A DNA stretch of 64,000 bases from Oxalobacteraceae bacterium UBA6018 (GCA_002428015.1 DIZW01000042.1:222-64221), one strand, 5' to 3'. Positions 50,045 to 64,000 are shown, counted from the stretch's first letter. A program made the numbers and translations. The notes: generated from the sequence alone by a model not told the origin.

Positions 50045-50063
50045 TGATACATTCCAGGACGAT
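50042..50063 (-). repeat. Copy 1 of a 22-nt translation-initiation repeat ATCGT(C/T)CTGGAA(T/C)GTATCAATG
   Basis: 20/22 identical to 52278-52299; ends in the start codon. Confidence 0.75.
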
Positions 50064-50177
50064 GATGGAAAAGCTGGCCGGCGCCGGGCGCCGACCTGGA
50101 TGGGCAACATGAGGGACAAGCGGCGCGGCGGCCTGCCGTGGCGCGACGCTGGCCAATGTTGGGAGCCGAAGCGTGGA

Positions 50178-52280
50178 TCACTGTACGACGTAGTCCTGGC
50201 GCGCCGGGCCGACGCCGCGCAGCTCGATCCGTTTCAGCCCGGTGGGCAGCTTGACCGCGCCCTGGCTGATGCCATCGTCGCCGATACGCAGGCCGCCCAA
50301 ACCGAACAGCAAGGCCTGCAGGGCGCCGCCGGCCCCGGTGACGAAGTAGGGATTGCTGCCGCCGGCCGTCTCGGCCAGGACCCCGAACGGCGCCAGCTCG
50401 TTGGGCTGGTAGCTGCGCTTGAACAGGGCCCAGGCCTGGTCGGGCTGGCCGATGCGGGCGTACAGGGTGGCCAGGATGGCGTGCGACATGGCCGGGCCGT
50501 CCGGCGCCAGGCGACCCTCGTAGTAGGCCAGGTCCTGGGCGATGCGGCGCGGGTCGCGCACGATGTCGAGCGGGTAGGCCAGCAGGTTGGCGTCGGCCTG
50601 CTTGATGGGCACGCCGTCGTAGCTGGCGTTTTCACGCGTGGTGCCGTCGGCGAAGCGCAGGATGGGGATGTTGGCCGCCACCACGGCCCAGTCCGGGTCC
50701 GGCGCCAGGCCCAGCTCGCGCGCGGCCTGGGTGGCATAGCCGAGCACGGTGATGGCCATGCCGTTGGTGAAGGCGTTGTTGTCGATGTTCTCCTGCCACT
50801 CGTTGGCGCCGATCACGTTGTCGATGTCGAAGTGGCCGGGGCCGCGCCGCGTCACCCGGCTGGCCCAGAAATCGGCCACGTCCTTGAGCACGGGGTAGCC
50901 GCGCTCGCGCAGCCAGGTCTTGTCGTGGGTCACCTGGTAGTACTTCCAGAAGGCCCAGCCCACGTCGCCCGTGATGTGCTGCTGGAACGGACCGGTCAGG
51001 GCCCACACCGGGGTCGTCTCCTGGCCCTCGCTGGCCGATTCCCACGGGAACATGGCGCCGCGGTAGCCGTGGCTGAAGGCGTTCTGGCGCGCCGCGCCCA
51101 GGCGTGCGTAGCGGTATTCGAGCAGGGATTTGGCCAGCTCGGGATGCAGGGCCAGCAGCGGCGGATACATCCATAGTTCGCTGTCCCAGAACACGTGGCC
51201 GTTGTAGCCCAGGCCGGACAGGCCCATCGGCGACAGGCTGTAGGCGGTGCCTTCACGCGCGAACGAGTACAGGTGGTACAGGGCCAGGCGCACCTCGCGC
51301 TGGACCCGCTCGTCGCCGGCGATGACGATGTCGCCCCGCCACAGCGCGGCCCAGGCCGCGGCGTGGTCCTGCTGCAGGCGGGCGCGCCCCTGCAAGGCGG
51401 CGTAGATGGTCAGGCGCTCGGCCTCGTTGTGCGGGTCGGCCGTGTGGGCCGAGGAGATCACCGAGCCGACGACGGCAAAGCGGAAAGTCTCGCCGGCCTT
51501 GAGGCGGCGGCTGAACTTGGTCAGGTGGGTGTTGTAGTCCCAGTCCTCGTGCACCAGGGCCGGCCCGGCGCGCTCGTCGAACAGCAGGCTGACCGAGGCG
51601 GCCACGGTGTGCTTGCCCGTCGGGCTCTTGCCGACCGAGGTCATGAGGGGAATGCTGACGTGGGGGCGGTCGATGACGGCGTACAGGTTCTTCACTTCGC
51701 GCAGGATGTCCGGCGCCTCGATCACGGCGGCGGGGGTGACCAGCACATCCTGGCGCGCCTGCAGTTCCACCGTGGCCAGGGCGCTAAAGGGCAGGTTGCG
51801 CAGGGCGGCGATGCTGTGGCGCACGTGCAGCTTGGCGCCCACGTCGAATTCGGTGACCAGGGTGGCCGTTTTCATGTCCAGGCGCTGGCGTAGGTTCGAC
51901 ACGCTGGCGGCGTCGGCGCGCCGTCCGTCGACGTCGAGCGTGATGTTCATGAAGTTGAAGCCCTTCAGGATGTTGTCGACCCGGCCGCGGCCGTAGTTGT
52001 CGAAGGCGCCGTTGAGCACCACCTCCGTGATCTTCATCGGTTCGGGCGAGGACACCAGGCCGATCATGCCGTTGGCGACGCTCACGCCGTGGTAGTGCGC
52101 CGGATCGATCTTGCTGGCCGTGATGGTCCAGTCGTCCTGGCCGGCGGCGCGGGCGAGGGCGCAGGCTCCCAGCAGCGCGAGCGCGGCGGCCGCGACGTGT
52201 TTGATGCCAATGCCGATGCCGATGCCGCTGGCGCGCTTGCGGGCCGCGGCTTGCTGATCCGGTGATATAAGCTGATCCAT
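50178..52280 (-). CDS. Secreted GH65 glycoside hydrolase (hydrolase type; kojibiose hydrolase / trehalase-like)
   Basis: Signal peptide; VANGMIG, GYNGHVFWDSELW, VIGANEW, IKQADANLL, PFGVLAET, FVTGAGG. Confidence 0.88.
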   Translation of the reverse strand: MDQLISPDQQAAARKRASGIGIGIGIKHVAAAALALLGACALARAAGQDDWTITASKIDPAHYHGVSVANGMIGLVSSPEPMKITEVVLNGAFDNYGRGRVDNILKGFNFMNITLDVDGRRADAASVSNLRQRLDMKTATLVTEFDVGAKLHVRHSIAALRNLPFSALATVELQARQDVLVTPAAVIEAPDILREVKNLYAVIDRPHVSIPLMTSVGKSPTGKHTVAASVSLLFDERAGPALVHEDWDYNTHLTKFSRRLKAGETFRFAVVGSVISSAHTADPHNEAERLTIYAALQGRARLQQDHAAAWAALWRGDIVIAGDERVQREVRLALYHLYSFAREGTAYSLSPMGLSGLGYNGHVFWDSELWMYPPLLALHPELAKSLLEYRYARLGAARQNAFSHGYRGAMFPWESASEGQETTPVWALTGPFQQHITGDVGWAFWKYYQVTHDKTWLRERGYPVLKDVADFWASRVTRRGPGHFDIDNVIGANEWQENIDNNAFTNGMAITVLGYATQAARELGLAPDPDWAVVAANIPILRFADGTTRENASYDGVPIKQADANLLAYPLDIVRDPRRIAQDLAYYEGRLAPDGPAMSHAILATLYARIGQPDQAWALFKRSYQPNELAPFGVLAETAGGSNPYFVTGAGGALQALLFGLGGLRIGDDGISQGAVKLPTGLKRIELRGVGPARQDYVVQ

Positions 52281-52299
52281 TGATACGTTCCAGAACGAT
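52278..52299 (-). repeat. Copy 2 of the 22-nt translation-initiation repeat
   Basis: ATCGTTCTGGAACGTATCAATG on the minus strand, ending at the GH65 ATG. Confidence 0.75.
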
Positions 52300-52307
52300 A
52301 AAAAGCC

Positions 52308-52337
52308 AAAAAAACCGGCTGACCCACGGCCAGCCGG
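52308..52337 (-). terminator. Rho-independent terminator between the TonB receptor and GH65
   Basis: CCGGCTG/CAGCCGG stem followed by T7 on the minus strand. Confidence 0.75.
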
Positions 52338-52352
52338 CAAAGGAGGTACTGT

Positions 52353-54848
52353 TTAGAACGACGCGGTGAGGCTGGCCTGCATGTTGCGCCCCAGGATAGA
52401 GCGGGCGAAGAAGTAGTTGCCCGCCAGTTCACTGAAGCTCGAACGGGGATTGCCCTCGGTCAGACCGATCGTGTTGGTCAGGTTCTGCACGCTCACGTTG
52501 AACGCCAGCTTGTCGTTGATCTGATAGCGCGCGCCCAGGTCGAAGGCGTGATACGCCGGCAGCACGATCGTGTTGCCGCCGTCGGCGTAGCGCTTGCCGA
52601 CCTGGTGGAAGCTGACGAACACCTCGCCCTTGTTGTCAGGCAACAGCAGGCTAGGCGTGACGGTGGCGTTGACCTCCGGCGAGCGCTCCGGCTTGCCGCC
52701 GATGCTGGACAGGTCCACCAGCGCGGCCGACGGGCCGGTCACGGAGTCGAAGTGGGTGCTGGCCTTCTGGAACACGCCGGTCGCCGTCACCTGGGCGAAC
52801 TTCACGGGACGCCACAACATATCGTATTCGACGCCGGTCACATTGATGCCGCCGTGGACCTTGGTGTCCAGCGTGTCGCCGGGGAACTGGCGGCTGTAGT
52901 TGAAGTTGTTGAAGTGGGTGCGGAACAAGGTCAGGCCGGTGGAGAAGCCGCGTTGCTTGTAGCGTGCGCCAATTTCCGTGAACGAGATCTTGGTCGGCTC
53001 CTCGCCGCCCTGTTCCTGGTAGCTTTGCGAGTAGCGTGCATAGCCGGCCAGGTAGTCGTTGAACAGGTAGTTGCCGCCGGCGGTGTAGGACGAATCGGTG
53101 CGCGCTTTCTTGGCGTCGACGCTGTAGTTGTCGAACACGTTCAGCTTGTTGTTGACCATGATGTTGTCGGCGTCGCTGCCATCCGGATTGAGCGCGCCTT
53201 CCGGCGTGATTTCCTTGCCGTTCGGGTTCCAGTTGGTGACCTTGGAGCGCTCCACGCGCACGCCGGCGTCCAGGCGCAGCTTGTCGTTGAACTTGAACTC
53301 GTCGTTCAGGTAGAGGTTGGTCGAGCTCAGCTGCTGCTTGCTCACGCCGGTGCCCCATGGCTGGTATTGCAGCACGCCCTGGCTGGTCAGCTGGCCGACC
53401 ACCTGGCCGGCCGGGTTGATGGCCACGATGTCCAGGCGCGAGGGATTGTTTCTCACCTCGCCGAGAAAGCGCATATTGCCGTCGCTGCTGTCCTGGCTGT
53501 CCTGGTGGATGGCCAGCATGCCGACCGTCATGCTGTTGTTGGGCAGGCTCCAGGTCAGGCTCACGTCGTTCATCAGCACTTGCTTGGCGTGCAGCTGGGA
53601 CGAGGACACGCTGTCGGCCACCAGGCCGTTGCCGCCCACGTTGGCCAGGCTCGCGCCGGTGTAGATGACGTGGCTGGCCACACCCTGCAGGGCGGCGCTG
53701 GCGCCCTTGAAGCGTGCCAGCATGGCGGCGACGTCGCTGTTCTTGCCCGGGTCCAGGCGGTCGGCGGCCGACACCAGGCTCGCGTTGTCATAAGTGAAGA
53801 TGGCGTTGAACTGGTTGTTGAAGTCGGTGTAGCGCCCCTTCGACCTGAACGTGACGTTGTCCATCACCTGCTTGTCGAAGGCGTAGCCGATGGCGGTGGC
53901 CTTGGTGTGGATGCCGTCGGTGGCGTTGTTGTCGCGCAGGCCGTTGGACGTGTGGCCGGCCTGGATCGCGTTGTCGAGGCTGATCATGGTGCCGTAGTTG
54001 CCGTCAAAGCCAGGAACGGCTTGCGGGTGGGACGGATTGAGGAAGGGCGTCGGCAGCAGGAAGGCGTTATGGTCGTCGATCACCTTGACATTGAGGTTGA
54101 ATTCGCCGTCGCTGAACTTGCGCCCGATGTAGGCGCGCAGCAGGCCGCCCTTGTCGGTGGTAAAGCCGGTGTTGCGCACGCCGTCGGAGGTGCGCATGTA
54201 GCCGCCGAAGCCGGCATACCAGCCGCCGCCGAGCGGGCCGCCGTAGCGGGCTTCGACCTTCTTGGTGCCATAGTCCGAGCCGGTCACGCGCAGCATGCCT
54301 TCGGCCTCGTCCTTGGCCTTGAAGGTCAGGAAGTTGACGGTGGCGCCGGCGCCGTTGGTGGTCAGGATGCCGGAGGTGCCGCCGCGTACCGCTTCCAGGC
54401 GGTCGATCGACAATTCCATGCGCACCATCTGGTCGGCGAAGCCGGCGCCGTAGAAGATCGGCAGGCCGTCTTCGGAGATCTGGATGAACGCCTGTCCGCC
54501 GCCGGCCAGGCCGCGCACGGAAAAGTTGTTCGATGCTTCGCCGCCCGAGTCCTCGACCATCACGCCAGGAATCAGTTCCAGGGCGGACGCCATGCTGCGC
54601 GGGGCCTTGCGGTCGAGGTCTTCGCGGTCGGCGACGGTCACCGCGACCGAGCTTTCGCGCACCGTACGCTTGAGCGAGGTGCTGCCGGTCACGACCACCT
54701 GGTTGAGTTTGTCTCCTGCAGTATCGCTCGTGGCAGCCGCGGCACCGTCGCTCGGGGCGGTCGCGCTATCGTCGGCGTGGGCCTGGTTGATCACCGTCAG
54801 CACGGCCAGCGTTATGGACGAGAGCAAATACTTCTTGTGGCTTTTCAT
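52353..54848 (-). CDS. TonB-dependent receptor (carbohydrate type, no STN domain)
   Basis: Signal peptide MKSHKKYLLSS..AHA, TonB box VVVTGS, plug LEAVRGG, C-terminal SLTASF. Confidence 0.93.
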   Translation of the reverse strand: MKSHKKYLLSSITLAVLTVINQAHADDSATAPSDGAAAATSDTAGDKLNQVVVTGSTSLKRTVRESSVAVTVADREDLDRKAPRSMASALELIPGVMVEDSGGEASNNFSVRGLAGGGQAFIQISEDGLPIFYGAGFADQMVRMELSIDRLEAVRGGTSGILTTNGAGATVNFLTFKAKDEAEGMLRVTGSDYGTKKVEARYGGPLGGGWYAGFGGYMRTSDGVRNTGFTTDKGGLLRAYIGRKFSDGEFNLNVKVIDDHNAFLLPTPFLNPSHPQAVPGFDGNYGTMISLDNAIQAGHTSNGLRDNNATDGIHTKATAIGYAFDKQVMDNVTFRSKGRYTDFNNQFNAIFTYDNASLVSAADRLDPGKNSDVAAMLARFKGASAALQGVASHVIYTGASLANVGGNGLVADSVSSSQLHAKQVLMNDVSLTWSLPNNSMTVGMLAIHQDSQDSSDGNMRFLGEVRNNPSRLDIVAINPAGQVVGQLTSQGVLQYQPWGTGVSKQQLSSTNLYLNDEFKFNDKLRLDAGVRVERSKVTNWNPNGKEITPEGALNPDGSDADNIMVNNKLNVFDNYSVDAKKARTDSSYTAGGNYLFNDYLAGYARYSQSYQEQGGEEPTKISFTEIGARYKQRGFSTGLTLFRTHFNNFNYSRQFPGDTLDTKVHGGINVTGVEYDMLWRPVKFAQVTATGVFQKASTHFDSVTGPSAALVDLSSIGGKPERSPEVNATVTPSLLLPDNKGEVFVSFHQVGKRYADGGNTIVLPAYHAFDLGARYQINDKLAFNVSVQNLTNTIGLTEGNPRSSFSELAGNYFFARSILGRNMQASLTASF

Positions 54849-54930
54849 GTGAACTCCGTTATAGATTTTATCAAGACTACCCGCCGCTCCGCGACATGTC
54901 ACGGAGTACTTCCAAACTATCAATGTGAAT

Positions 54931-54966
54931 GAACAACCGGTTGTTCTGTGTTGCGCAACCGGTTGC
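54931..54966. promoter_or_regulatory. Tandem LacI-type operators GAACAACCGGTTGTTC (54931-54946) and GCAACCGGTTGC (54955-54966)
   Basis: Perfect 16-bp and 12-bp palindromes sharing CAACCGGTTG, in the divergent receptor/halogenase spacer. Confidence 0.75.
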
Positions 54967-55105
54967 TCAACGTTAGAATTATGCTGCATATCAAAACGGA
55001 AAGCAACGACTTGAATGGAAGCACTGCAACATGTCGCATTTTTTCCAATTCGGCGGGCACGCCTCGTCGCTGTTCTATTAGTCGCAGTTCAACCTGGGAG
55101 CAAAC

Positions 55106-56608
55106 ATGAATGATCCGCGTATTGGCGACATCGTCATCGTCGGCGGCGGCACGGCCGGCTGGATGACGGCCGCCGCCCTGTCCAAGGCGCTCGGCGGCGC
55201 CTGCCGCATCCGCCTGATCGAGTCGGACGAGGTCGGCACCGTCGGGGTGGGCGAGGCGACGCTGCCCCATATCGCCCAGTTCAATGCCTTCCTCGGGATC
55301 GACGAGGACGACTTCGTCAGGAAAACCGGCGCCACCTTCAAGCTGGGCATTGAGTTCGTCGACTGGGACCGGATCGGCCAGCGCTACTTCCACAGCTTCG
55401 GCGCGATCGGGCGCGCGCGCGGCATGGTGCCCTTCTATCACTATTGGCTGCGCGCGGTCCAGGGCGGGGCCCAGCACGACCTGGCCGATTACTGCCTGAA
55501 CATGGCCGCCGCGAGAGACGGCAAGTTCATGCGCGCGGTGGACGCACCCGATTCGCCGTTCGCCACCCTGGCCCACGGTTTCCACTTCGACGCCGTCCTG
55601 TACGCGCGCTACCTGCGTGCCTATGCGGAGCGGGGCGGCGTGCTGCGCTGCGAGGGCAAGGTGGTCGACACGGTGCTGCGCGGCGCGGACGGCTTTATCG
55701 AAGCCGTGGTGCTGGAAGGCGGCGCGCGCGTCGGCGCGGACCTGTTCATCGACTGTTCCGGCTTTCGCGGCTTGTTGATCGAGCAGGCGCTGCACACCGG
55801 CTACGAGAGCTGGGACCACTGGCTCCCCTGCGACCGCGCCGTCGTGGCGCCCAGTGCGCTGGCCGACGCGCCGGCGCCCTACACGCGGGCGACGGCGCGC
55901 CCCGCCGGCTGGCAATGGCGCATCCCTTTGCAGCACAGGACCGGCAACGGCCACGTGTTTTCGAGCGCCTTCATGAGCGAGGATGAGGCCAGCGCCGTGC
56001 TGCTGGCGAACCTGGAGGGCGAGGCGCTGGGCGCTCCGCGCACGCTCAAGTTCGTCACCGGGCGGCGGCGCAAGGCGTGGAACCGCAACTGCTTCGCGAT
56101 CGGCCTGTCGAGCGGCTTCATGGAGCCGCTGGAATCGACCAGCATCCACATGATCCAGTCGAGCATCGCGCGTTTGCTGCAGTTTTTCCCCGACCGGCGC
56201 TTCCAGCAGCGCGATATCGACGAATGCAACGACCAGCTGGCGCGCGAAACCGAGCATATCCGCGATTTCCTGATCCTGCACTATAAGGCGGGCAGGCGAA
56301 CCGACTCGGCGTTCTGGAACCATTGCCGCCAGATGGAGATTCCCGCCACCCTGGCGCGGAAGATGGCCTTGTTCCAGACCCACGGACGCCTGGCGCGCGA
56401 AGCCGATGCGATGTTCGTCGAGGAGAACTGGCTGCACGTGATGGTGGGACAAGGCTTGCGGCCCGGCGGACACCACCCGCTCGCGCACTTGCTGGCGGCG
56501 CCAGAGCTGGAGGCGTTCATGGCCGACACGCGGGCCGTCGTCCGCGCCTGCGCGCAGGCGATGCCCACGCACGCCCAGTTCATCGCTGAGCATTGCCAGG
56601 CCAAATGA
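55106..56608 (+). CDS. Tryptophan halogenase-family flavoprotein
   Basis: GGGTAGW, GVGEAT, FIDCSGF, WQWRIPLQ, FMEPLESTSIH. Confidence 0.9.
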   Translation: MNDPRIGDIVIVGGGTAGWMTAAALSKALGGACRIRLIESDEVGTVGVGEATLPHIAQFNAFLGIDEDDFVRKTGATFKLGIEFVDWDRIGQRYFHSFGAIGRARGMVPFYHYWLRAVQGGAQHDLADYCLNMAAARDGKFMRAVDAPDSPFATLAHGFHFDAVLYARYLRAYAERGGVLRCEGKVVDTVLRGADGFIEAVVLEGGARVGADLFIDCSGFRGLLIEQALHTGYESWDHWLPCDRAVVAPSALADAPAPYTRATARPAGWQWRIPLQHRTGNGHVFSSAFMSEDEASAVLLANLEGEALGAPRTLKFVTGRRRKAWNRNCFAIGLSSGFMEPLESTSIHMIQSSIARLLQFFPDRRFQQRDIDECNDQLARETEHIRDFLILHYKAGRRTDSAFWNHCRQMEIPATLARKMALFQTHGRLAREADAMFVEENWLHVMVGQGLRPGGHHPLAHLLAAPELEAFMADTRAVVRACAQAMPTHAQFIAEHCQAK

Positions 56609-56750
56609 GGCCGGCAGGGGGAGGGCGACGGCCGCGCTGGCGGGGCGCCGCTTGCGCGCCGGTTCCATACCACTATGGCGTTTGCGCTATGATGCCGGGT
56701 TTGAGCAGCTAGCAACTGGCGCTCAGCCAGGCTGGCGGGGAAGGTGGGAA

Positions 56751-57713
56751 GTGAAGATAACGCTGGATCAATTGGCATTGAACCTGGGCCTGTCGAAGGG
56801 CACGGTGAGCCGCGCCATGAACGGCAAGGGCCGCATGTCCGAGGAAACGCGCACGCGCATCCTGGCCGCCATGCAGGAAGCCGGCTACACGCCCGATCCG
56901 ACCGCCCAGGAACTGAGCCGGCGCTCGGGCCACAGCATCGGCATCTCGCTCCAGCAGGGCGGCTTCGGCCCCTACTTCACGCTGTTCTGGCGTGCGCTGG
57001 TGCAGGTGACCAGTGAACGCGGCACCCGCTTCATCGAGATGAGCGAGCCGCTGGACAGCTACGCGCGCCTGCCCCACGCCGTCCTGCTGCACAACACCAT
57101 CGAAGTGCAGGAACGCCTGGCCCTGCTGGCGCGGCGCGGCGTGCCGGCGGTGGTGCTGGGGCATCAGCCTGACACGGCTTTCGTGGTGCCCGACGACGCC
57201 AACGGCGCGCGCGCCGCCACCGCCCACCTGCAGGCGCTCGGACACCGCGCCATCGCCTACGTCGGCATGGCCAGTTCGCAGCAGTCGGACCAGGACCGGC
57301 GCGCCGGCTACCGCGACGCCATGGCCGACATCGGCATCGGCGTGCGCGAGCAGTTCGAGCTCGATGGAGGGTTCACCGTGTTGGGAGGCTACCGCGCGGT
57401 GCGCCGCGCGTGGGAGGAGGGCGTGCGTTTCAGCGCGCTGTTCTGCGCCAGCGACGAAATGGCGGTCGGCGCCATCGGCGCGCTGGAGGATCTGGGCTTG
57501 AAGGTGCCGGACGATGTGTCGGTGGTCGGCTTCGACGGCCTGCCCGGGATGCCCTATGCCTTGACCACGGTGGTGCAGGATATCGGGCGCATCGCCGTGG
57601 AGGCCATTTCGCTGGCCGAGGCCTTGATCGATGGCGGCCCCAAGCGCGAGATCATCGTGCCGGTGACCTTGCGGGTGGGAGCGACGACGGCGCCGCCGCG
57701 GCACGCGCCATAG
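56751..57713 (+). CDS. LacI-family transcriptional regulator
   Basis: GTG start; ITLDQLALNLGLSKGTVSRAMN HTH; FCASDEMA, SVVGFDG. Confidence 0.93.
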   Translation: MKITLDQLALNLGLSKGTVSRAMNGKGRMSEETRTRILAAMQEAGYTPDPTAQELSRRSGHSIGISLQQGGFGPYFTLFWRALVQVTSERGTRFIEMSEPLDSYARLPHAVLLHNTIEVQERLALLARRGVPAVVLGHQPDTAFVVPDDANGARAATAHLQALGHRAIAYVGMASSQQSDQDRRAGYRDAMADIGIGVREQFELDGGFTVLGGYRAVRRAWEEGVRFSALFCASDEMAVGAIGALEDLGLKVPDDVSVVGFDGLPGMPYALTTVVQDIGRIAVEAISLAEALIDGGPKREIIVPVTLRVGATTAPPRHAP

Positions 57714-57755
57714 CAAGGGGCGGCGCGAAAGCGCTACCGGACGCCGTCAAACGTG

Positions 57756-58778
57756 CTAAAAGTGCTTCTTGAGCGCGACGTCGACAAACTCGTTGGTATA
57801 GGTGAGCGCGATCTTCACGTCCTTGTACGCCGGGTTGAATGCCGACAGCACGCCCAGTTCCTTGGCGGCGCCTTCGGCCGGCATGCGGCCATCGTTGGCG
57901 AACATCGGGATCTCCTGCTTGAGGATCGCCAGATAGGCCGCGCGGTCCTTGCCGCTGACTTCAACCGGAATCAGGGCCGCGATCTCCTCGGCGCTGTGGC
58001 TGTTGATGAAGCTGAGCGTGCGGACGAAGGCGTCGGCCAGGTGTTGGGCGATGTCGGGACGCTGCTTGACGCGCTCGCGGTTCATGAAGACTGTACTCGA
58101 CGGGAACAAGGCGCCAAGGTTCTTCCGCGTGCCTTCGACCGTCGTCAGGTCGGCGAACACGCTCGCCGCCCCTTGGGCCAGATAGAAGTCGCCATCCGGT
58201 GTCGGCGCGACGACGACGTCGGCGCTGCCGTCGCGCAGCGCCGCCAGGTTCTTCTCCTTGCCGCCAGCGCCGAGACGCTGGTAATCGGCGATCGCGTGGC
58301 CGCCGGCCAGCACCAGGTAGTTAGCCAGGGTGGTCTTGGACGAGCCGTCGCCGCCGGCGATGATGCGGCTGCCCTTGAGGTCGGCCACGCCGCGGTACTT
58401 GTCGCGCACCCGGTTGGCGACCAGCACCTTGGCGCCCGGCGTCACGCCCAAGGTCACGATCGCTTCCGAATACAGTCCTTTCGACTGGCTGACGATATTG
58501 TGGTGGTAGTACGCGAGCACGGCGTCGACCCTGCCGTCGGCCAGCATCTGGGCATGCGGCACTTCGTCGCGGATGTTCACGATCGTCACGTCCATGCCGT
58601 CACCCTTGAGGTAGCCGAGACGCTCGGCCAGGATGACGGGGAAGTTACGGATCGCCTTGACTTCATCGACCAGCAGCACGATGCGCTTGTCCATGGCGAC
58701 CGCTTCGGGCGCGGCGGCGTGCACCGCTCCGCCGCCGAGCAGGAACAGCAGCGACGCGAGCGCAAATGAGCTTTTCAT
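57756..58778 (-). CDS. Periplasmic substrate-binding protein (NMT1/SsuA-like), without cognate permease or ATPase nearby
   Basis: Signal peptide; LAERLGYLK.DG, ADLKG, FVRTLSFI motifs. Confidence 0.8.
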   Translation of the reverse strand: MKSSFALASLLFLLGGGAVHAAAPEAVAMDKRIVLLVDEVKAIRNFPVILAERLGYLKGDGMDVTIVNIRDEVPHAQMLADGRVDAVLAYYHHNIVSQSKGLYSEAIVTLGVTPGAKVLVANRVRDKYRGVADLKGSRIIAGGDGSSKTTLANYLVLAGGHAIADYQRLGAGGKEKNLAALRDGSADVVVAPTPDGDFYLAQGAASVFADLTTVEGTRKNLGALFPSSTVFMNRERVKQRPDIAQHLADAFVRTLSFINSHSAEEIAALIPVEVSGKDRAAYLAILKQEIPMFANDGRMPAEGAAKELGVLSAFNPAYKDVKIALTYTNEFVDVALKKHF

Positions 58779-58828
58779 GAGCTTCTTTCAGATTAGTTTG
58801 ACGGGGCGGCCCGATGCCGGCGCCGCGC

Positions 58829-60184
58829 TCAGCGCATTTGCGACAGCGCCACCAAGGCCAGCGTGACGGTGAGCGCGCCGCCGATGCGGGTGGCGATTTG
58901 CGCGAACGGCATCATCTGCATCCGGTTCGCCGCGGTCAGGATCGCCACGTCGCCGGTGCCGCCCTGGCCGCTGTGGCAGGCATTGACGATGGCGGTCTCG
59001 ATCGGGTGCATCTTGAGCCAGCGGCCCACCACGAAGCCGGTGCCGATCAGGGTGGCGACGGTGGCGACGATGGTGACCAGGTTGACGACGTTAAAGGCCG
59101 ACACCAGCTTGTCCCACGGCGTCATGGCCACGCCGATGGCAAACAGCAGCGGGTAGGTGACGGCGGTCGAGAAGAATTTGTAGACGACGTGGGAACCCTG
59201 CTGCAGTTGCGGCGATACCGCATGCGACAGCTTGAACACGACCGCCACGAACAGCATGACCACGGGCGCCGGAAAATCGAACAGGCGAGCCGCCATCAGG
59301 CCGACCATGTACAGCGCGATCGCGGTAATGCCGGCGGCGGCGACCTGGCCCACGTCCATCGGCCCTGAAGGCGCCTCGTGGACCGGCGCAAGTTCGTCGG
59401 TTTCATTGGGCTGCAGGCGGCCTTCGCCGCTCAGGTGGGGGTAGCGCTTGCCGACGAAATTGAGCGAGCCGGCGATGACGATGGCGCTCAGGCTGCCCAG
59501 CATGACGGGCGGGAGCACCTGCGCGAATACGTCGCCCTGCGCCACATGCAGGATGGTGGCGTAGCCGATCGACAGCGGGATCGCACCTTCGCCGACGCCG
59601 CCGGCCATGATCGGCACCACGACGAAGAAGAAGGTATGGTAGGCGCCCAGTCCCAGCACGGTGCCCACCAGGGTGCCGACCATGGCGGCGGCCACCGAGC
59701 CGGCCGCCAGCGGAATGAAGATCTTGAGGAAACCCTTGATGAGAATCGTCCGGTCCATGCTCATGATGCTGCCGACGATGATCGAGGCGATGAACAGGTA
59801 CAGGAAATTGGTCTGCTTGGTGAACTCCGTCACGTTCTTGACCACGCTGAGGGGAATCAGGTGGGCGAACGCCAGGTAGGAAGGAATGAAGGTGGCGAAG
59901 ATGGCCGCCGCGCCGATATGGCGGATCAGCGGAATGCGCTTGCCCAGTTCGGCGCAGGTGAAGCCGCCCACCGCGAGCACCGCGATCGACACCGAGATAT
60001 CGGTCGGCACCTTGCCGGTGGCGACGAAGCCGGCGATCAGGGCCACCAGCAGCACATAGACCGGCAGCGGGATGATCCCGATCCTGGTCTCCATCAGCTT
60101 CCACCAGCCGTGCGGCCAGAAGCCGGTGCTGGTGGTATCACTGGTGAGCGGGGCGCGGATTTCGGCGGGTAGCGATTTCATCAT
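58829..60184 (-). CDS. 2-hydroxycarboxylate (citrate/malate) transporter, CitS/MaeN family
   Basis: PIMAGGVGEGAIPLS, GQGGTGDVAIL, MPFAQIATRIGG. Confidence 0.93.
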   Translation of the reverse strand: MMKSLPAEIRAPLTSDTTSTGFWPHGWWKLMETRIGIIPLPVYVLLVALIAGFVATGKVPTDISVSIAVLAVGGFTCAELGKRIPLIRHIGAAAIFATFIPSYLAFAHLIPLSVVKNVTEFTKQTNFLYLFIASIIVGSIMSMDRTILIKGFLKIFIPLAAGSVAAAMVGTLVGTVLGLGAYHTFFFVVVPIMAGGVGEGAIPLSIGYATILHVAQGDVFAQVLPPVMLGSLSAIVIAGSLNFVGKRYPHLSGEGRLQPNETDELAPVHEAPSGPMDVGQVAAAGITAIALYMVGLMAARLFDFPAPVVMLFVAVVFKLSHAVSPQLQQGSHVVYKFFSTAVTYPLLFAIGVAMTPWDKLVSAFNVVNLVTIVATVATLIGTGFVVGRWLKMHPIETAIVNACHSGQGGTGDVAILTAANRMQMMPFAQIATRIGGALTVTLALVALSQMR

Positions 60185-60208
60185 GGTCTCCTGGCCTGTG
60201 CGGCACGA

Positions 60209-61285
60209 TTATTTTGAGTAGGTCAACACGCTGAAGGTGTTCGGCAGGAAGCTGGTTTGGGCCTCCTCACCGTCGCGATACTTCCTGACGTACTGCGCGT
60301 TCACCAGATAGATTTTTCCGCTGCGTTCGTCGAGCACGCCGGTGCGCGCCATCGGACGGGTGCCGACCGTCTCGGCGACCTGGTAGGCGTCGGCGGACAG
60401 TTGGCGGATCACGCTCATGCTGCCATCCTCGCCGTTGGCGGTGATGACCTCCTTGCCGCGCGGGTCGTACATGACTTCATCGACGCCGCGGCCGATCGGC
60501 ACCCACGCCACCTGCTTGCCGCTGGCGGCATCGAGCACCGCCAGGCGCGGGCTGCTCGCCCGGTCGCCGCGGCAGCCGACAAAAATGCGCTGGTTGACGG
60601 GGTCCAGCTCCAACGCCGCCGGCTTGGCGCAGTCCGCCACTGCCACGACGGCGCCGGCCTGCATGGTGCGCGCGTCGATGCTGGCGACCGATCCGTGGTC
60701 GCGCAGCGGCATCACGATGTTGCCCTTGCCATCGGCGCGCGGCGCGTCCACCTTGACGCTGTGCAGGAGCACCGAGCCGGCGGGCTTGCCGGTGCGCGCG
60801 TCGAAGAACAGCACTGGCGTGGTCTTGGTCGCGGGGTCGGCCTCGCCGACGGCGGCGAAACGCTTGCTCACCGGTTCGTAGGTGGCCCCGTCGAAGCCGT
60901 CGGTTGCGCTCTTGTAGCGTGCCACGGTCTGCAGGGTGGAGAGCTTGAACACGATGATGTAGCCGTCGGTGGTGCCGGCGATGCCGCGGTCGAATTCGGG
61001 CGCCAGCGCGGCGGTGTTGGCGTTGCTGGACCCGGCCAGGGTCTTGATCACCTTGCCGGACTTGATGTCGTACACGTGCAGGCCGTCCTGGCGGTGCGCG
61101 ATGAAGATGTGTCCATGCTGCGGGTCGATCGCGTTGTAGTCCCAGCCGGAGTCGCCGCCTGGGATGGTGACGCTTTTTTCCAGGTGATAGGTGCCTTCTG
61201 CGGCCGCCGGCAGCGCGGCGGCGGCCATGCACAGAGCCCCGCAAATGGCGGCGGCGCGGCGGGTTCGTTTCAGTGGTGTGAACAT
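60209..61285 (-). CDS. YncE-like secreted beta-propeller protein
   Basis: Signal peptide; GWDY, PIGRGVD, GTRPMARTGVLD repeats. Confidence 0.75.
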   Translation of the reverse strand: MFTPLKRTRRAAAICGALCMAAAALPAAAEGTYHLEKSVTIPGGDSGWDYNAIDPQHGHIFIAHRQDGLHVYDIKSGKVIKTLAGSSNANTAALAPEFDRGIAGTTDGYIIVFKLSTLQTVARYKSATDGFDGATYEPVSKRFAAVGEADPATKTTPVLFFDARTGKPAGSVLLHSVKVDAPRADGKGNIVMPLRDHGSVASIDARTMQAGAVVAVADCAKPAALELDPVNQRIFVGCRGDRASSPRLAVLDAASGKQVAWVPIGRGVDEVMYDPRGKEVITANGEDGSMSVIRQLSADAYQVAETVGTRPMARTGVLDERSGKIYLVNAQYVRKYRDGEEAQTSFLPNTFSVLTYSK

Positions 61286-61329
61286 ATCGTCTCCTTAATG
61301 CGTGAGAAGGTGGAAGTCCGGGCCGAGGA

Positions 61330-62115
61330 TCAGCCGCCGAAGGGCACGCCGATGATCGCCTTGAGCACCCACCGGTCCGAGGCCGCTGCGTTGCCCCGTC
61401 CGATGCCCAGGTTCAGGTCCCAGTCCCTTATTTTCGTATCGAGCACGGCATACAAGGTACGCGCCTGGCGTCCAAGCGGACCGAGATGGGACAGTTGACC
61501 GATGCCGTTGTAGCTCTCGATACCTATTTCGGTGTCCGGCGCGGTCCGGTAGGCGAGCTTCGCGGCCAGTTCGAGCGTCGTCGGGCTGGGGCTCGGTCCC
61601 GACACCTTGAAGTCGACATTGGCGTTCAGCGCAGCGGTCCAGCGCGCGCCCCGATAGCCGACGATGCCTTTCAATTCGCCGTTCCATGGATTGGGGTCGA
61701 GCCGGAAAGCGACCCGCCCCAGTTCCAGGTTGGCGCCGTAGAAGAAGGGATTGTCCTGCGCCGCCGGCGCGATGAACTTCAGGCGCAGCTTTTCGCCGTC
61801 CACGTGCAGCTGGCCGTCCGGGCCGCGCGAGGACAACAGGTAGGCGCCCAGCTCCAGGTTCGGTGTCCAGCCGTAGGAAAACTCGGGCGTGACGCGCAAG
61901 GTATGGCGCGCGACCTGGGCCCCCGCATAGTCGGCACTGGTGGCGCCTGAGAGCACGTAGTTGGTGTGCACGTCGAGGCCGAAGGCGCCGGGCGCGCTCA
62001 TTTCGTTCATGTAGACCTGGACTTCCTCGGGCGCCGCCTGGCTGGGCGCGGCCGCTGCGGCCAGCAGGACGCTGGCTGCGCAGCGCGCGAATGTCGATCG
62101 TGTGATGGCTGTCAT
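61330..62115 (-). CDS. Putative outer-membrane beta-barrel protein
   Basis: Signal peptide; amphipathic strands (PEFSYG, ELGAYL, WDLNLGIG); C-terminal IIGVPF. Start trimmed to ATG 62115. Confidence 0.65.
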   Translation of the reverse strand: MTAITRSTFARCAASVLLAAAAAPSQAAPEEVQVYMNEMSAPGAFGLDVHTNYVLSGATSADYAGAQVARHTLRVTPEFSYGWTPNLELGAYLLSSRGPDGQLHVDGEKLRLKFIAPAAQDNPFFYGANLELGRVAFRLDPNPWNGELKGIVGYRGARWTAALNANVDFKVSGPSPSPTTLELAAKLAYRTAPDTEIGIESYNGIGQLSHLGPLGRQARTLYAVLDTKIRDWDLNLGIGRGNAAASDRWVLKAIIGVPFGG

Positions 62116-62220
62116 ATTATGTAGTCGGGTCCGCGAAAAGATGGTTACTGGTGTGTGTAGCCTCATCATGCGCGGCTCGCCTAAAGCCATTCTGAAAATT
62201 GGATGAACGCGAATTCAGAT

Positions 62221-63999
62221 TCAGAGGTCCAGCACCAGCTCGGCGCCGCATGCGCGCGAACAGCAGGGCGCGAACTGGTCGTTCCGGGCGCGTTCGGCGT
62301 CGGTCAGGTACAGGTCGCGATGCTCGGGCACGCCCGCCAGGACGCGCGTGACGCAGGTACCGCACACGCCTTTCTCGCAGGAGCGCGGCACCTCGACGCC
62401 GGCGGCCAACAGCACTTCCAGCGCGGTCTTGTCGCTGGCCACGTGCAGTACCTTGCCGCTGGCGGCGAGCCTGATGTCGAAGGGCGCGTCGTCCGCCGTC
62501 CTGGTCGATTCGGCGGAGAAGTATTCCGTGTGCACGTGGCTGTCAGGCCAGCCGTTCTGGCGCGCCGTCGCGCACACCACGTTCAGGAAGCCCGGCGGGC
62601 CGCAGACATACAGGTGGGCGCCGGGGGAGGGCGCGTCCAGCAGCTTGGCGAAGTCGGCCAGCTGCTCGGCCGGGCCGTCGCTGAAGTGGAAGTGGGTGCG
62701 CGCGGCGTAGGGCGAACGGGCGATGCGGTCGCGAAACGCCGTGCGCGCGGCCGTGCGGGTGCAGTAGTGCAGCTCGAAGTCCGCGCCGCGGCGCGCAAGG
62801 TCCTCGGCCATGCTGATCAGCGGCGTGATGCCGATCCCGCCTGCGATCAGGAGCGAGCGCCGGCTCGCCGGGGCCAGCGCGAAGCGCGCCTTGGGCAGGC
62901 TGACGTCGATCAGCTGGCCCGCCCGCACGTCGTCGTGCATGGCGCGCGAGCCGCCGCGCGAGTGCGCTTCGCGCTGCACGCAGATCTGGTAGCGCCGTGT
63001 CTCGCTGGGGTCGTTGCAGAGCGAATACTGGCGCATCCGGCCGTCGCGCAAGAACACGTCCAGATGGGCGCCGGCGCCGAACGGCGGCAGCGGGCCGCCG
63101 CGCGGGTCCTCCAGGTCGAATACGCAGATGCCCTCGGCCTCCACGCTCTTATGCCTCACCTTCAGCGTCAGGCGTCCGCTGGGGCGGCGCCGCCGGCGCC
63201 GCCGCAGGTAGCCGCCGATGCCGCTGTAGGCCAGCACCGGGATGCACAGGGCGCCCAGCATGAGCACCAGCTGACCGGCCGTGCCGCCCACATGCCCGGT
63301 GTGCAGCGACAGGGTCCAGAAATACAGGCGGTGGCCCAGGCTGCTGGCGGCGTAAGGCGTGAAGCGCAGCACCTTGCCGCTGTAGGCGTCCAGGTCCAGC
63401 ATGGTGCGCGCGTTCACGTGGGGGGCGTCGGCGGCGATCAGGTACATCTCCACCGCCGCTTGCGGGCGGCTCGGATAGTGGATCAGCGCCTCCTGCGGAT
63501 GCGGCACCAGCGCCTGCGCGCGTTGCCACAGCTGCTCCAGCGGCAGGCGCGGCGCGCCGGCGGCGGGGCCGGAGCTGGGCGCCTTGGCCGGCTGGGCCGA
63601 GCCGGTCATGCTGTACAGGGCCCGCTTGGACCAGTCGAAGGCCTGCGGCAGGCCGGTCAGGGCGCTGGCAAGCACGATCACGCTGGCGTACAGCCCGACC
63701 GTCTTGTGCAGGCTGGCCGTGCGGGCTGCCCCCTGCAGGCGTGGATTGAAACGCATGGCCCGGCGCAGGCCACGCAGCGAGGGCGGCAGCCACAGGTACA
63801 GGCCGCCGCCGATCAGCACGATGGCGAACAGCAGCGCGCTGGTGCCGGTGATCAGCTCGCCGTTGGGCATGAAGCGGAAGCGGTGAATCTGCTCGAGCGT
63901 GCCCAGCAGGCCGCCCCAGCGGTGGCGCTGACCCAGCACGGCGCCGCTGCACGGGTCGAGATAGACGAAGCCCTGGTCGGTGAAGCGCACCATGGCGGC
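62221..63999 (-). CDS. PepSY-associated TM domain fused to a PDR/VanB-type FMN/NAD/[2Fe-2S] reductase (5' end beyond the window)
   Basis: EQIHRF, SLHKTVG, SGLPQAF-like, SLHTG; then RQYSLCN, AGGIGITP, YVCGP, CEKGVCGTC, PCCS in one frame; no stop before the window edge. Confidence 0.85.
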   Translation of the reverse strand, partial: AAMVRFTDQGFVYLDPCSGAVLGQRHRWGGLLGTLEQIHRFRFMPNGELITGTSALLFAIVLIGGGLYLWLPPSLRGLRRAMRFNPRLQGAARTASLHKTVGLYASVIVLASALTGLPQAFDWSKRALYSMTGSAQPAKAPSSGPAAGAPRLPLEQLWQRAQALVPHPQEALIHYPSRPQAAVEMYLIAADAPHVNARTMLDLDAYSGKVLRFTPYAASSLGHRLYFWTLSLHTGHVGGTAGQLVLMLGALCIPVLAYSGIGGYLRRRRRRRPSGRLTLKVRHKSVEAEGICVFDLEDPRGGPLPPFGAGAHLDVFLRDGRMRQYSLCNDPSETRRYQICVQREAHSRGGSRAMHDDVRAGQLIDVSLPKARFALAPASRRSLLIAGGIGITPLISMAEDLARRGADFELHYCTRTAARTAFRDRIARSPYAARTHFHFSDGPAEQLADFAKLLDAPSPGAHLYVCGPPGFLNVVCATARQNGWPDSHVHTEYFSAESTRTADDAPFDIRLAASGKVLHVASDKTALEVLLAAGVEVPRSCEKGVCGTCVTRVLAGVPEHRDLYLTDAERARNDQFAPCCSRACGAELVLDL

Positions 64000-64000
64000 C

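What the first reader, a model, noticed from the sequence alone, without database searches (positions are those of the whole stretch)
57756..63999. Possible metal-citrate reduction and uptake operon built on a PepSY-TM/VanB reductase fusion
One strand encodes, in order, a PepSY-TM membrane domain with His motifs fused in frame to an FMN/NAD/[2Fe-2S] reductase, an outer-membrane barrel, a periplasmic YncE propeller, a citrate/malate transporter and an orphan binding protein. PepSY-TM proteins such as FoxB are haem-containing ferric-siderophore reductases, whereas VanB/PDR reductases normally serve Rieske oxygenases, none of which is seen here. The fusion could be a self-contained NAD(P)H-to-periplasm electron wire that reduces Fe(III)- or Cu(II)-citrate, with the freed carboxylate imported by the 2-HCT carrier.
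Basis: partly seen in the sequence, partly recalled or inferred. Interest (0 to 1): 0.72.

Follow-up and report, generated by a model that had tools for sequence, protein, structure and literature searches.

The report
Self-powered PepSY membrane metal reductase locus
A soil betaproteobacterium carries two copies of a membrane haem protein of the ferric-siderophore-reductase type that is fused to its own NADH-flavin-iron-sulfur module. The fusion suggests where this enzyme family gets its electrons, and the genes sit in a larger, locally regulated metal-uptake locus whose substrate is still unknown.

Summary
Window 57756-63999 (minus strand) encodes an NMT1-type binding protein, a 2-HCT carrier, a beta-propeller, a 261/286-aa probable outer-membrane protein, and a PepSY_TM protein fused in frame to a phthalate-dioxygenase-reductase (PDR) type module.

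The fusion is not an assembly artefact. The 120 best relatives listed share the architecture. All four FoxB-type haem histidines, the flavin motif and the [2Fe-2S] cysteines are invariant in the 55 sequences aligned. No oxygenase gene lies nearby, here or in 18 related loci.

The window cuts the locus. Beyond base 64000 lie:
- a two-component system;
- a 50%-identical second fusion;
- a siderophore-type TonB receptor;
- a new periplasmic tandem ferredoxin-like protein;
- a second propeller and a small exported protein.

A direct repeat, CCTGAA-N5-CCTGAA, marks the promoters (4 sites, 0.01 expected). It recurs upstream of the fusion gene in other genera. I found no Fur box.

The best reading is a self-sufficient NAD(P)H-to-periplasm metal-chelate reductase, most likely ferric. 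The citrate-specific reading is weak: the 2-HCT gene accompanies only 4 of 12 comparable loci, whereas the "orphan" binding protein is one of the most constant partners.

This is a new variant of a known kind. This scan has already noted PepSY fusions to NqrF-like modules in other genomes.

The parts
62221..64000 (-). fusion1: PepSY_TM di-haem membrane domain fused to a PDR-type flavin/NAD/[2Fe-2S] reductase. The full gene runs to extrapolated window coordinate 64275 (L003 2443-4497), 684 aa.

Parts of the same locus BEYOND THE WINDOW cannot be listed as rows. Window coordinate = L003 coordinate + 59778.
- Operator-like repeat CCTGAACTCAACCTGAA: L003 4701-4717 (+).
- Response regulator: L003 about 4766-5635 (+).
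- Sensor kinase: L003 5635-7038 (+).
- fusion2: L003 7213-9252 (-).
- unk261, tandem ferredoxin-like exported protein: L003 9282-10067 (-).
- TonB siderophore-type receptor: L003 10155-12254 (-).
- Operator-like repeats: L003 12362-12378 (+) and 12408-12424 (-).
- Propeller 2: L003 about 12497-13528 (+).
- Operator-like repeat: L003 13578-13594 (-).
- unk258: L003 13677-14453 (+).
   Evidence: PF03929 156 bits, Fer2 and NAD_binding_1. 2PIA E 1e-74. FoxB 7ABW E 7e-6. H13, H131, H190, H325, R415xYS and C633, C638, C641, C671 invariant in 55 sequences. AF2 pLDDT 84.7. Foldseek TM 0.74 to both 2PIA and 7ABW. Parts beyond the window.
61330..62190 (-). Exported 261/286-aa protein, probably a small outer-membrane beta-barrel. 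Likely start at 62115, followed by a signal peptide.
   Evidence: No Pfam match. Large family of 1005 representatives. Weak OMP_b-brl and Phenol_MetA_deg matches in single members. hhalign probability 58% to the unk258 family. 65%-identical orthologue in the same position in L121.
60209..61285 (-). Periplasmic beta-propeller 1 (YVTN/YncE-like in the loose sense).
   Evidence: Only weak propeller profile matches; YncE equivalog 25.8 bits against cut-off 400. 24% identical to propeller 2. 63-70% orthologues in L102, L121, L124.
58829..60184 (-). 2-hydroxycarboxylate transporter family carrier (citrate/malate type; substrate not assigned).
   Evidence: PF03390 473.7 bits. TIGR00783 457.6 bits, below cut-off 549; CitS 211.8 against 600. 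Present in 4 of 12 type-A loci.
57756..58778 (-). Periplasmic NMT1/SsuA-fold binding protein with invariant AYYHHN, GSSK, VVAPxPDG and DGRMP motifs. A core partner of the fusion.
   Evidence: PF09084 46.7 bits. PDB 3QSL E 8.5e-33. 63-80% orthologues beside the fusion in 9 other loci. Motifs from the alignment.

Best explanation
fusion1, and its paralogue fusion2 about 3 kb beyond the window end, is a self-sufficient transmembrane reductase. The cytoplasmic PDR-type module takes a hydride from NAD(P)H onto its flavin and passes single electrons to its [2Fe-2S] cluster. The electrons then cross the inner membrane through two bis-histidine haems b in the four-helix PepSY_TM bundle. They reach a substrate held in the periplasmic PepSY cavity.

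That substrate is most likely a ferric chelate brought in by the neighbouring TonB-dependent receptor. Reduction would release Fe(II).

The enzyme belongs to one locus with a shared operator (CCTGAA-N5-CCTGAA), most likely the binding site of the local OmpR-type response regulator. The locus also encodes the receptor, an NMT1-fold binding protein, a new tandem ferredoxin-like periplasmic protein, two propellers, two small exported (probably outer-membrane) proteins and a 2-HCT carrier.

Shown here: domain composition, conservation of the ligands, topology by homology, gene context, the repeat and its conservation.

Inferred: cofactor binding, direction and donor of electron flow, the metal, the roles of the accessory proteins, and regulation by the two-component system.
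For: - Architecture and homology.
- Invariant residues in 55 sequences down to 48% identity: haem ligands H13, H131, H190, H325, flavin motif R415-x-Y417-S418, cluster cysteines C633, C638, C641, C671.
- The FoxB alignment places H13/R14 on FoxB H9/R10 and H190 on FoxB H198. The FoxB paper describes H198 as a ligand of the cytoplasmic haem, and R10 and K373 as binding its propionates (10.1101/2021.01.28.428567). The C-terminus, and so the reductase, is therefore cytoplasmic. A run of arginines follows TM4.
- The same PDR-type module is fused behind a haem domain in the self-sufficient P450s 6KBH and 6LAA.
- The 120 best relatives listed (800 at E <= 1e-10) keep the fusion.
- Neighbours are TonB siderophore-type receptors, TonB-ExbBD in L125 and an FbpA-type binding protein in L124.
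- No oxygenase gene in any of the loci read.
- The operator-like repeat is enriched here and conserved across genera.
- The FoxB paper already noted fusions of this family to sulfite-reductase-like proteins. None of the PepSY_TM papers read here names a physiological electron donor. The FoxB assay used DTT.
Against: - No biochemical data exist for any member of the fusion family.
- The AF2 model has pTM 0.56. The position of the [2Fe-2S] domain relative to the cytoplasmic haem is therefore not established, and I could not read the coordinates.
- No Fur box of 12/19 or better is present, and control appears to be by a two-component system of the heavy-metal/PmrA-like group. The metal might therefore not be iron.
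- The local receptor only just reaches the siderophore-receptor cut-off (223.6 against 223.5).
- PstS-like (PBP_like_2) and SsuA-like binding proteins, which elsewhere bind oxyanions, are enriched around relatives.
- CrpH shows that a PepSY_TM protein can be linked to copper (PMC13038864).
- The fusion1 operon itself has no receptor and no obvious Fe(II) importer.
Confidence: 0.62

Rival explanations
1. The enzyme reduces Fe(III)- or Cu(II)-citrate in the periplasm, and the 2-HCT carrier re-imports the freed citrate or malate. This is a special case of the best explanation, scored here as its own claim.
For: The 2-HCT gene lies 24 bp behind the propeller gene in the same apparent operon. It recurs at 76-81% identity in L102, L121 and L124. 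Other carboxylate-related genes occur near relatives: CitMHS in L123, and an MFS carrier plus a citrate-binding ATP-grasp protein on the P0036 contig.
Against: The 2-HCT gene is absent from 8 of 12 type-A loci and from all type-B loci. In L124 a malic-enzyme gene follows it, which suggests plain malate use. It does not reach the CitS or citrate:cation symporter cut-offs. The receptor resembles FemA, BauA and FhuA; FecA is not among the listed matches.
Confidence: 0.18
2. Same electron wire, different acceptor: Cu(II), as proposed for CrpH, or another redox-active metal or metal oxyanion handled by the PstS-like and SsuA-like binding proteins.
For: The kinase and regulator are closest to the heavy-metal, PmrA and CusR groups. 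No Fur box was found. PBP_like_2 proteins cluster around relatives, nine in L122. PMC13038864 links a PepSY_TM protein to copper.
Against: No copper-receptor model appears among the receptor's NCBIfam matches, whereas siderophore-receptor models do. No copper chaperone, multicopper oxidase or P-type ATPase gene lies in the locus. The kinase sensor domain has no conserved His, Cys or Met motif.
Confidence: 0.15
3. The fusion feeds electrons to a periplasmic partner protein rather than to a small chelate, as MsrQ does for MsrP. The partner could be unk261 (ABM/Cld/DyP-like fold) or a propeller.
For: unk261 accompanies the fusion in 8 other loci and has the fold of cofactor-dependent redox enzymes. 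MsrQ-type and PepSY-type cytochromes are structurally alike (PMC11334425).
Against: unk261 has no invariant His or Cys to hold haem or a metal. Type-B loci lack unk261, the binding protein and the propellers but keep the fusion next to a receptor.
Confidence: 0.08
4. The PDR module is an ordinary oxygenase reductase (VanB-like) that happens to be membrane-anchored, or the protein is a NOX-like superoxide generator.
For: Databases name relatives 'vanillate O-demethylase ferredoxin subunit'. Stand-alone reductases 50-58% identical to the reductase half are common in Halomonas and Pseudomonas. The fold resembles the SpNOX dehydrogenase domain.
Against: No oxygenase gene in any locus read. Invariant haem ligands in the membrane half would be pointless for an anchor. 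The context is metal uptake.
Confidence: 0.03

Closest known systems
FoxB of Pseudomonas aeruginosa (PDB 7ABW) and other four-helix PepSY_TM / COG3182 reductases (FpvG, FhuB, FsrB, HiuB)
   Same: Full-length homology of residues 5-364. Four TM helices with two periplasmic PepSY domains. The four haem-ligand histidines are conserved. It lies next to TonB-dependent receptors.
   Different: FoxB ends after TM4, and the papers read here name no physiological electron donor for it. This protein carries a complete NAD(P)H-flavin-[2Fe-2S] module on the cytoplasmic end. It is only 22% identical to FoxB. Control appears to be by a two-component system rather than by Fur or sigma/anti-sigma factors.
Phthalate dioxygenase reductase (2PIA) and VanB-type class IA reductases
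   Same: 41% identity over all about 320 residues. Same domain order (flavin, NAD, C-terminal plant-type [2Fe-2S]) and same motifs.
   Different: Those are soluble and serve Rieske or other oxygenases encoded nearby. This one is fused to a membrane cytochrome and has no oxygenase partner.
Self-sufficient CYP116B-type P450s (6KBH, 6LAA)
   Same: The same PDR-type module is fused behind a haem domain, so that NAD(P)H reduces the haem within one polypeptide.
   Different: The haem domain there is a soluble P450 monooxygenase. Here it is a di-haem transmembrane bundle that exports electrons.
Eukaryotic FRE/NOX ferric reductases and bacterial SpNOX; PepSY_TM fusions to CysJ-like (PiuB-type) or NqrF-like modules
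   Same: Same logic: a cytoplasmic NAD(P)H-flavin domain plus two transmembrane haems that reduce an extracytoplasmic acceptor. The FoxB paper notes sulfite-reductase-like fusions. Earlier notes of this scan describe NqrF-like ones.
   Different: The membrane fold differs (no Ferric_reduct PF01794 match). The reductase family differs, with an extra [2Fe-2S] step. The CysJ-like and NqrF-like fusions use other donor modules.
CrtA-CrpH copper system of Bordetella pertussis (PMC13038864)
   Same: A PepSY_TM protein with essential haem histidines in a TonB-receptor operon, and under metal-responsive control that is not Fur-dependent.
   Different: CrpH has no fused reductase. The receptor here is siderophore-type rather than copper-type. 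No link to haem-copper oxidases was seen here.

Membership tests
PepSY_TM / COG3182 di-haem reductases (FoxB type) | Pfam PF03929 above the gathering score over the whole membrane domain | tested here: met
   156.1 bits against 28.8, residues 12-359
PepSY_TM / COG3182 di-haem reductases (FoxB type) | Four TM helices with two periplasmic PepSY domains (FoxB fold) | tested here: met
   AF2 model, pLDDT 84.7. Foldseek against 7ABW: TM 0.74-0.75, E 2.6e-17.
PepSY_TM / COG3182 di-haem reductases (FoxB type) | [quoted passage not shown] | tested here: met
   H13, H131, H190, H325 invariant in 55 sequences. They align to the FoxB histidine positions, including H198.
PepSY_TM / COG3182 di-haem reductases (FoxB type) | Haem binding and ferric-siderophore reductase activity | not testable with these tools
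   Needs purified protein.
Phthalate dioxygenase reductase (class IA) family | Flavin-NAD-[2Fe-2S] order, with the RxYS, GGxGxxP and Cx4Cx2C...C motifs | tested here: met
   2PIA E 1e-74, residues 366-684 against 6-321. Motif residues invariant.
VanB / oxygenase-coupled reductase | A cognate oxygenase gene (VanA, Rieske or similar) in the same cluster | tested here: not met
   None within about 10 kb, here or in 18 related loci. The whole genome could not be scanned.
YncE (7-bladed propeller, NF052280) | Score above the equivalog cut-off | tested here: not met
   25.8 bits (propeller 1) and 58 bits (propeller 2) against cut-off 400.
2-hydroxycarboxylate transporter family | PF03390 over the full length | tested here: met
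   473.7 bits, profile positions 1-414 of 415.
CitS / citrate:cation symporter | NCBIfam cut-offs for NF047943 and TIGR00783 | tested here: not met
   211.8 against 600 and 457.6 against 549.
Fur-regulated siderophore uptake operon | A Fur box in the promoter regions | tested here: not met
   No 19-mer with 12/19 or more matches to GATAATGATAATCATTATC in L003 or in window 50001-64000.
TonB-dependent siderophore receptor (TIGR01783) | Score at or above the subfamily cut-off | tested here: met
   223.6 against 223.5 for the local receptor. 258.5 for the L124 orthologue, and 360.7 and 379.6 for type-B receptors.

The most novel reading that the evidence does not exclude
The locus is an undescribed, two-component-controlled reductive metal-acquisition pathway that spans the cell envelope. 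Its core is the self-powered PepSY_TM-PDR reductase, a binding protein with a YYHH motif, and a new tandem ferredoxin-like periplasmic protein family.

The fusion would then show that NAD(P)H -> flavin -> [2Fe-2S] is the missing physiological electron input of PepSY_TM reductases in general. The substrate could be a hydroxycarboxylate-type ferric chelate, such as a citrate-based fungal or plant chelator met by these soil bacteria. It could equally be a non-iron substrate bound by the oxyanion-type binding proteins.
Probability: 0.3. Interest if true: 0.75.

Novelty: new variant of a known kind. Interest (0 to 1): 0.6.

Why it matters
PepSY_TM proteins (FoxB, FpvG, FhuB, HiuB, CrpH) are now accepted as periplasmic metal reductases. 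The papers read here do not say which cell component reduces their cytoplasmic haem, and the FoxB assay used DTT.

A natural, conserved fusion to an NAD(P)H-flavin-[2Fe-2S] module gives a direct, testable answer. It also provides a single-polypeptide enzyme that can be assayed with NADH alone.

The locus further ties three unannotated protein families and an unassigned two-component system, with a readable operator, to this chemistry. This occurs in mineral-weathering and fungus-associated soil Burkholderiales.

Many relatives are annotated 'vanillate O-demethylase ferredoxin subunit' or 'flavodoxin reductase', which is misleading.

Tried and rejected
- Fur-box scan: nothing at 12/19 or better.
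- Assembly artefact: rejected by conserved full-length relatives.
- Tat export of the propellers: the RR motif is not conserved in orthologues.
- Metal-sensing motif in the kinase: the ExxE seen here is not conserved.
- Copper receptor: no copper-receptor model appears among the NCBIfam matches.
- Homology of the 286-aa and 258-aa proteins: BLASTP found nothing. A profile comparison gave only 58% probability.
- Pfam and PDB sequence searches for unk261, unk258 and the 286-aa protein gave nothing usable.
- The related-loci scan mostly returned stand-alone reductases, because its patterns came from the reductase half. Only three full fusions were among the loci kept.
- The third exact genome copy of the repeat (contig C84) lies between convergent gene ends and is probably not a promoter site.
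- Literature searches found no paper on a PepSY_TM-PDR fusion.
- The coordinates of the AF2 model cannot be read, so no cluster-to-haem distance was measured.

Full report
**Observation**

The minus strand of window 57756-63999 carries five consecutive genes. Pfam and NCBIfam give the following:
- 57756-58778: an NMT1/SsuA-fold binding protein.
- 58829-60184: a 2-hydroxycarboxylate transporter (PF03390, 473.7 bits).
- 60209-61285: a beta-propeller. It has only weak profile matches, and the YncE equivalog scores 25.8 bits against a cut-off of 400.
- 61330-62190: an exported protein with no family match.
- From 62221 to the window end: an open frame with PepSY_TM, NAD_binding_1 and Fer2.

The gaps between the genes are 105, 44, 24 and 50 bp. 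Terminator-like hairpins occur at chance level and lie inside genes.

**Beyond the window**

The window is C135:222-64221 of a 5.98-Mb assembly in 137 contigs. I fetched the next 16 kb as L003; window coordinate = L003 coordinate + 59778.

The fusion gene is 684 aa long (L003 2443-4497) and has an AGGAG ribosome-binding site.

Upstream and divergent lie an OmpR-family response regulator, of which 256 bases are withheld as N, and a HAMP/HisKA kinase. The kinase is closest to the heavy-metal sensor subfamily but scores below its cut-off (208 against 292 bits).

The following genes come next:
- on the minus strand, a second fusion that is 50% identical over its full length;
- a 261-aa exported protein with no family match (unk261);
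- a TonB-dependent receptor that just reaches the siderophore-receptor cut-off (223.6 against 223.5 bits);
- on the plus strand, a second propeller (24% identical to the first) and a 258-aa exported protein (unk258).

A CysB-like regulator and sulfate ABC transporter genes follow. I treat them as unrelated neighbours.

No Rieske or other oxygenase gene is present.

**The fusion protein**

Residues 366-684 match phthalate dioxygenase reductase 2PIA end to end (E 1e-74, 41% identity). They also match the reductase domains of the self-sufficient P450s 6KBH and 6LAA.

Residues 5-364 match FoxB (7ABW) end to end (E 7e-6).

An AF2 model built on 55 sequences has mean pLDDT 84.7 and pTM 0.56. Foldseek finds 2PIA (TM 0.74) and FoxB (TM 0.74-0.75) for the two halves.

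In the 55-sequence alignment, which goes down to 48% identity, these residues are invariant:
- H13, H131, H190 and H325, the proposed haem ligands;
- R415, Y417 and S418, the flavin motif;
- C633, C638, C641 and C671, the cluster ligands;
- C54, C109 and H286 in the periplasmic domain.

The FoxB alignment places H13/R14 on FoxB H9/R10 and H190 on FoxB H198. In the FoxB paper, H198 ligates the cytoplasmic haem, and R10 and K373 hold its propionates (10.1101/2021.01.28.428567). TM4 therefore ends in the cytoplasm. The reductase follows after a run of arginines, on the side where NAD(P)H is found.

What the sequence shows is a complete set of ligands for NAD(P)H -> flavin -> [2Fe-2S] -> haem -> haem. 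That the cofactors bind, and that electrons flow outward, is inferred. I could not measure the cluster-to-haem distance.

**Distribution**

The word-index search scored 800 proteins at E <= 1e-10. All 120 best (48-100% identity) carry PepSY_TM plus Fer2. They come from Telluria, Collimonas, Paraburkholderia, Burkholderia, Pandoraea, Caballeronia, Azoarcus, Casimicrobiaceae and many metagenomes. Their names include 'PepSY domain-containing protein', 'flavodoxin reductase' and 'vanillate O-demethylase ferredoxin subunit'.

The fusion is patchy. None of 400 other genomes sampled evenly across the order had a full-length match. In the family sample, 8 of 400 did, including 1 of 23 in the same genus.

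**Gene context in relatives**

I compared 18 other loci. They fall into two types.

Type A comprises 11 other loci (L004-6, L099/100, L102, L121-124), making 12 with this one. The partners occur in these numbers of the 11 other loci:

| Partner | Loci (of 11) | Identity |
|---|---|---|
| NMT1-fold binding protein | 9 | 63-80% |
| unk261 | 8 | |
| Receptor related to the local one | 8 | |
| The same kinase | 8 | |
| PstS-like PBP_like_2 proteins | 7 | |
| Propeller | 5 | |
| unk258 | 4 | |
| 2-HCT carrier | 3 | |

Other points on type A:
- L121 has the same layout as this locus.
- In L102 and L124 a stand-alone PepSY_TM gene, 60% identical to the membrane half in L102, directly precedes the fusion.
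- In L004-6 a paralogous SsuA-like binding protein sits beside a TauBC-like ABC importer.
- L124 has an FbpA-type binding protein, and a malic-enzyme gene follows its 2-HCT gene.

Type B (L101, L103-107, L125) has no two-component system. It pairs the fusion with an FhuA/FoxA-like siderophore receptor (TIGR01783 at 361-380 bits in the two scored), DUF4198 and, in most, a HupE/UreJ_2 permease. L125 adds TonB-ExbBD.

L108 has none of these partners.

The constant theme is therefore TonB-dependent metal uptake, not citrate.

**Regulation**

No 19-mer matches the Fur consensus at 12/19 or better. Instead the intergenic regions share a direct repeat, CCTGAA-N5-CCTGAA.
- With at most one mismatch there are four sites in L003, where 0.01 is expected, and all are intergenic.
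- There are none in the 64-kb window.
- Genome-wide there are 24 sites against 8 for the reversed control.
- Only 3 copies are exact, and 2 of them are in this locus. The third lies between convergent gene ends.
- The same repeat lies upstream of the fusion gene, and at other promoters, in the type-A loci that carry the two-component system: L004-6, L099/100, L102 and L121. L124 was not scanned.
- It is absent from the scanned type-B loci L101 and L103-107, and from L108.

An 11-bp direct repeat is the usual site type for OmpR-family regulators (my own knowledge). I infer that the local regulator controls the whole locus, and that the fusion1 operon is driven from the single site in the divergent promoter region.

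The signal is unknown. The kinase sensor domain has no conserved metal-ligand motif.

**Accessory proteins**

*unk261.* This family has 239 clusters, all named hypothetical, and no Pfam model.
- It folds with high confidence (pLDDT 91.6) into two ferredoxin-like repeats.
- It resembles tandem ABM-type 'putative monooxygenases' (3F44, 3MCS), chlorite dismutase/HemQ and DyP proteins (E about 1e-9 to 1e-6, TM 0.5-0.64).
- It has no invariant His or Cys but many invariant Tyr and Arg.
- I therefore favour a ligand-binding or cofactor-less role. This is a guess.

*The binding protein.* Its closest solved relative is 3QSL, an uncharacterised exported protein. It has invariant AYYHHN, GSSK, VVAPxPDG and DGRMP motifs.

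*The small exported proteins.*
- The 286-aa protein belongs to a large family of 1005 representatives.
- Both small exported proteins give only weak outer-membrane-barrel hints.
- A profile comparison of the two families gives only 58% probability of homology.

**Comparison with what is known**
- PiuB-type and Brucella examples with flavodoxin/FAD/NAD domains are mentioned in PMC10866019 and PMC9045290.
- Earlier notes of this scan describe NqrF-like fusions in other genomes. I did not check those.
- I found no paper on the PDR-type fusion.
- CrpH shows that the family is not restricted to iron (PMC13038864).

**Verdict**
- The metal is probably iron but is not settled.
- The citrate loop is a minority feature.
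- The real unit is a larger locus that the window truncates.
- It is a new variant of a known kind. Its main value is as a lead to the unidentified electron donor of PepSY_TM reductases.

Noticed in passing
L102 7830-8903 and L124 8868-9953 (related loci): A stand-alone PepSY_TM gene, 60% identical to the membrane half of fusion1 in L102, directly precedes the fusion gene. A reductase-less paralogue may work with, or be reduced by, the fused one.
   Followed up: partly
L101, L103-L107, L125 (related loci): A second context for the fusion (type B): an FhuA/FoxA-like TonB receptor, DUF4198, a HupE/UreJ_2 permease in most and a 189-aa protein with no family match. These loci have no two-component system, and the scanned ones (L101, L103-107) lack the CCTGAA repeat. 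L125 adds TonB-ExbB-ExbD.
   Followed up: partly
L122 and the P0036 contig (related loci): Up to nine PstS-like PBP_like_2 genes, an RND efflux pair and DUF3016 surround the fusion genes in Casimicrobiaceae-like contigs. I have no explanation for so many oxyanion-type binding proteins.
   Followed up: no
L003 4939-5194 (extrapolated window 64717-64972): A run of 256 N (withheld bases) inside the response-regulator gene. I classified the regulator from its orthologue in L004 instead.
   Followed up: yes
L007-L083 (related loci): Stand-alone PDR-type reductases 49-58% identical to the reductase half are common in Halomonas, Vreelandella, Pseudomonas, Psychrobacter and Comamonadaceae. They may mark the source of the fused module. 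Their neighbours were not examined.
   Followed up: no
window 52353-57713: A TonB receptor (878 aa), a tryptophan-halogenase-family flavoprotein and a LacI-family regulator lie next to the cluster. The LacI gene converges on the binding-protein gene. They look like part of the neighbouring glycan locus, not of this system.
   Followed up: no
L003 14601-19602 (extrapolated window 74379-79380): A CysB-like LysR regulator and cysA, cysW, cysT and a sulfate-binding-protein gene follow unk258. I took this adjacency to SsuA-fold proteins as coincidence but did not test it.
   Followed up: no
L003 7052-7074 (extrapolated window 66830-66852): A strong GC-rich hairpin with T runs on both sides lies between the converging kinase and fusion2 genes. 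It is a likely bidirectional terminator.
   Followed up: no
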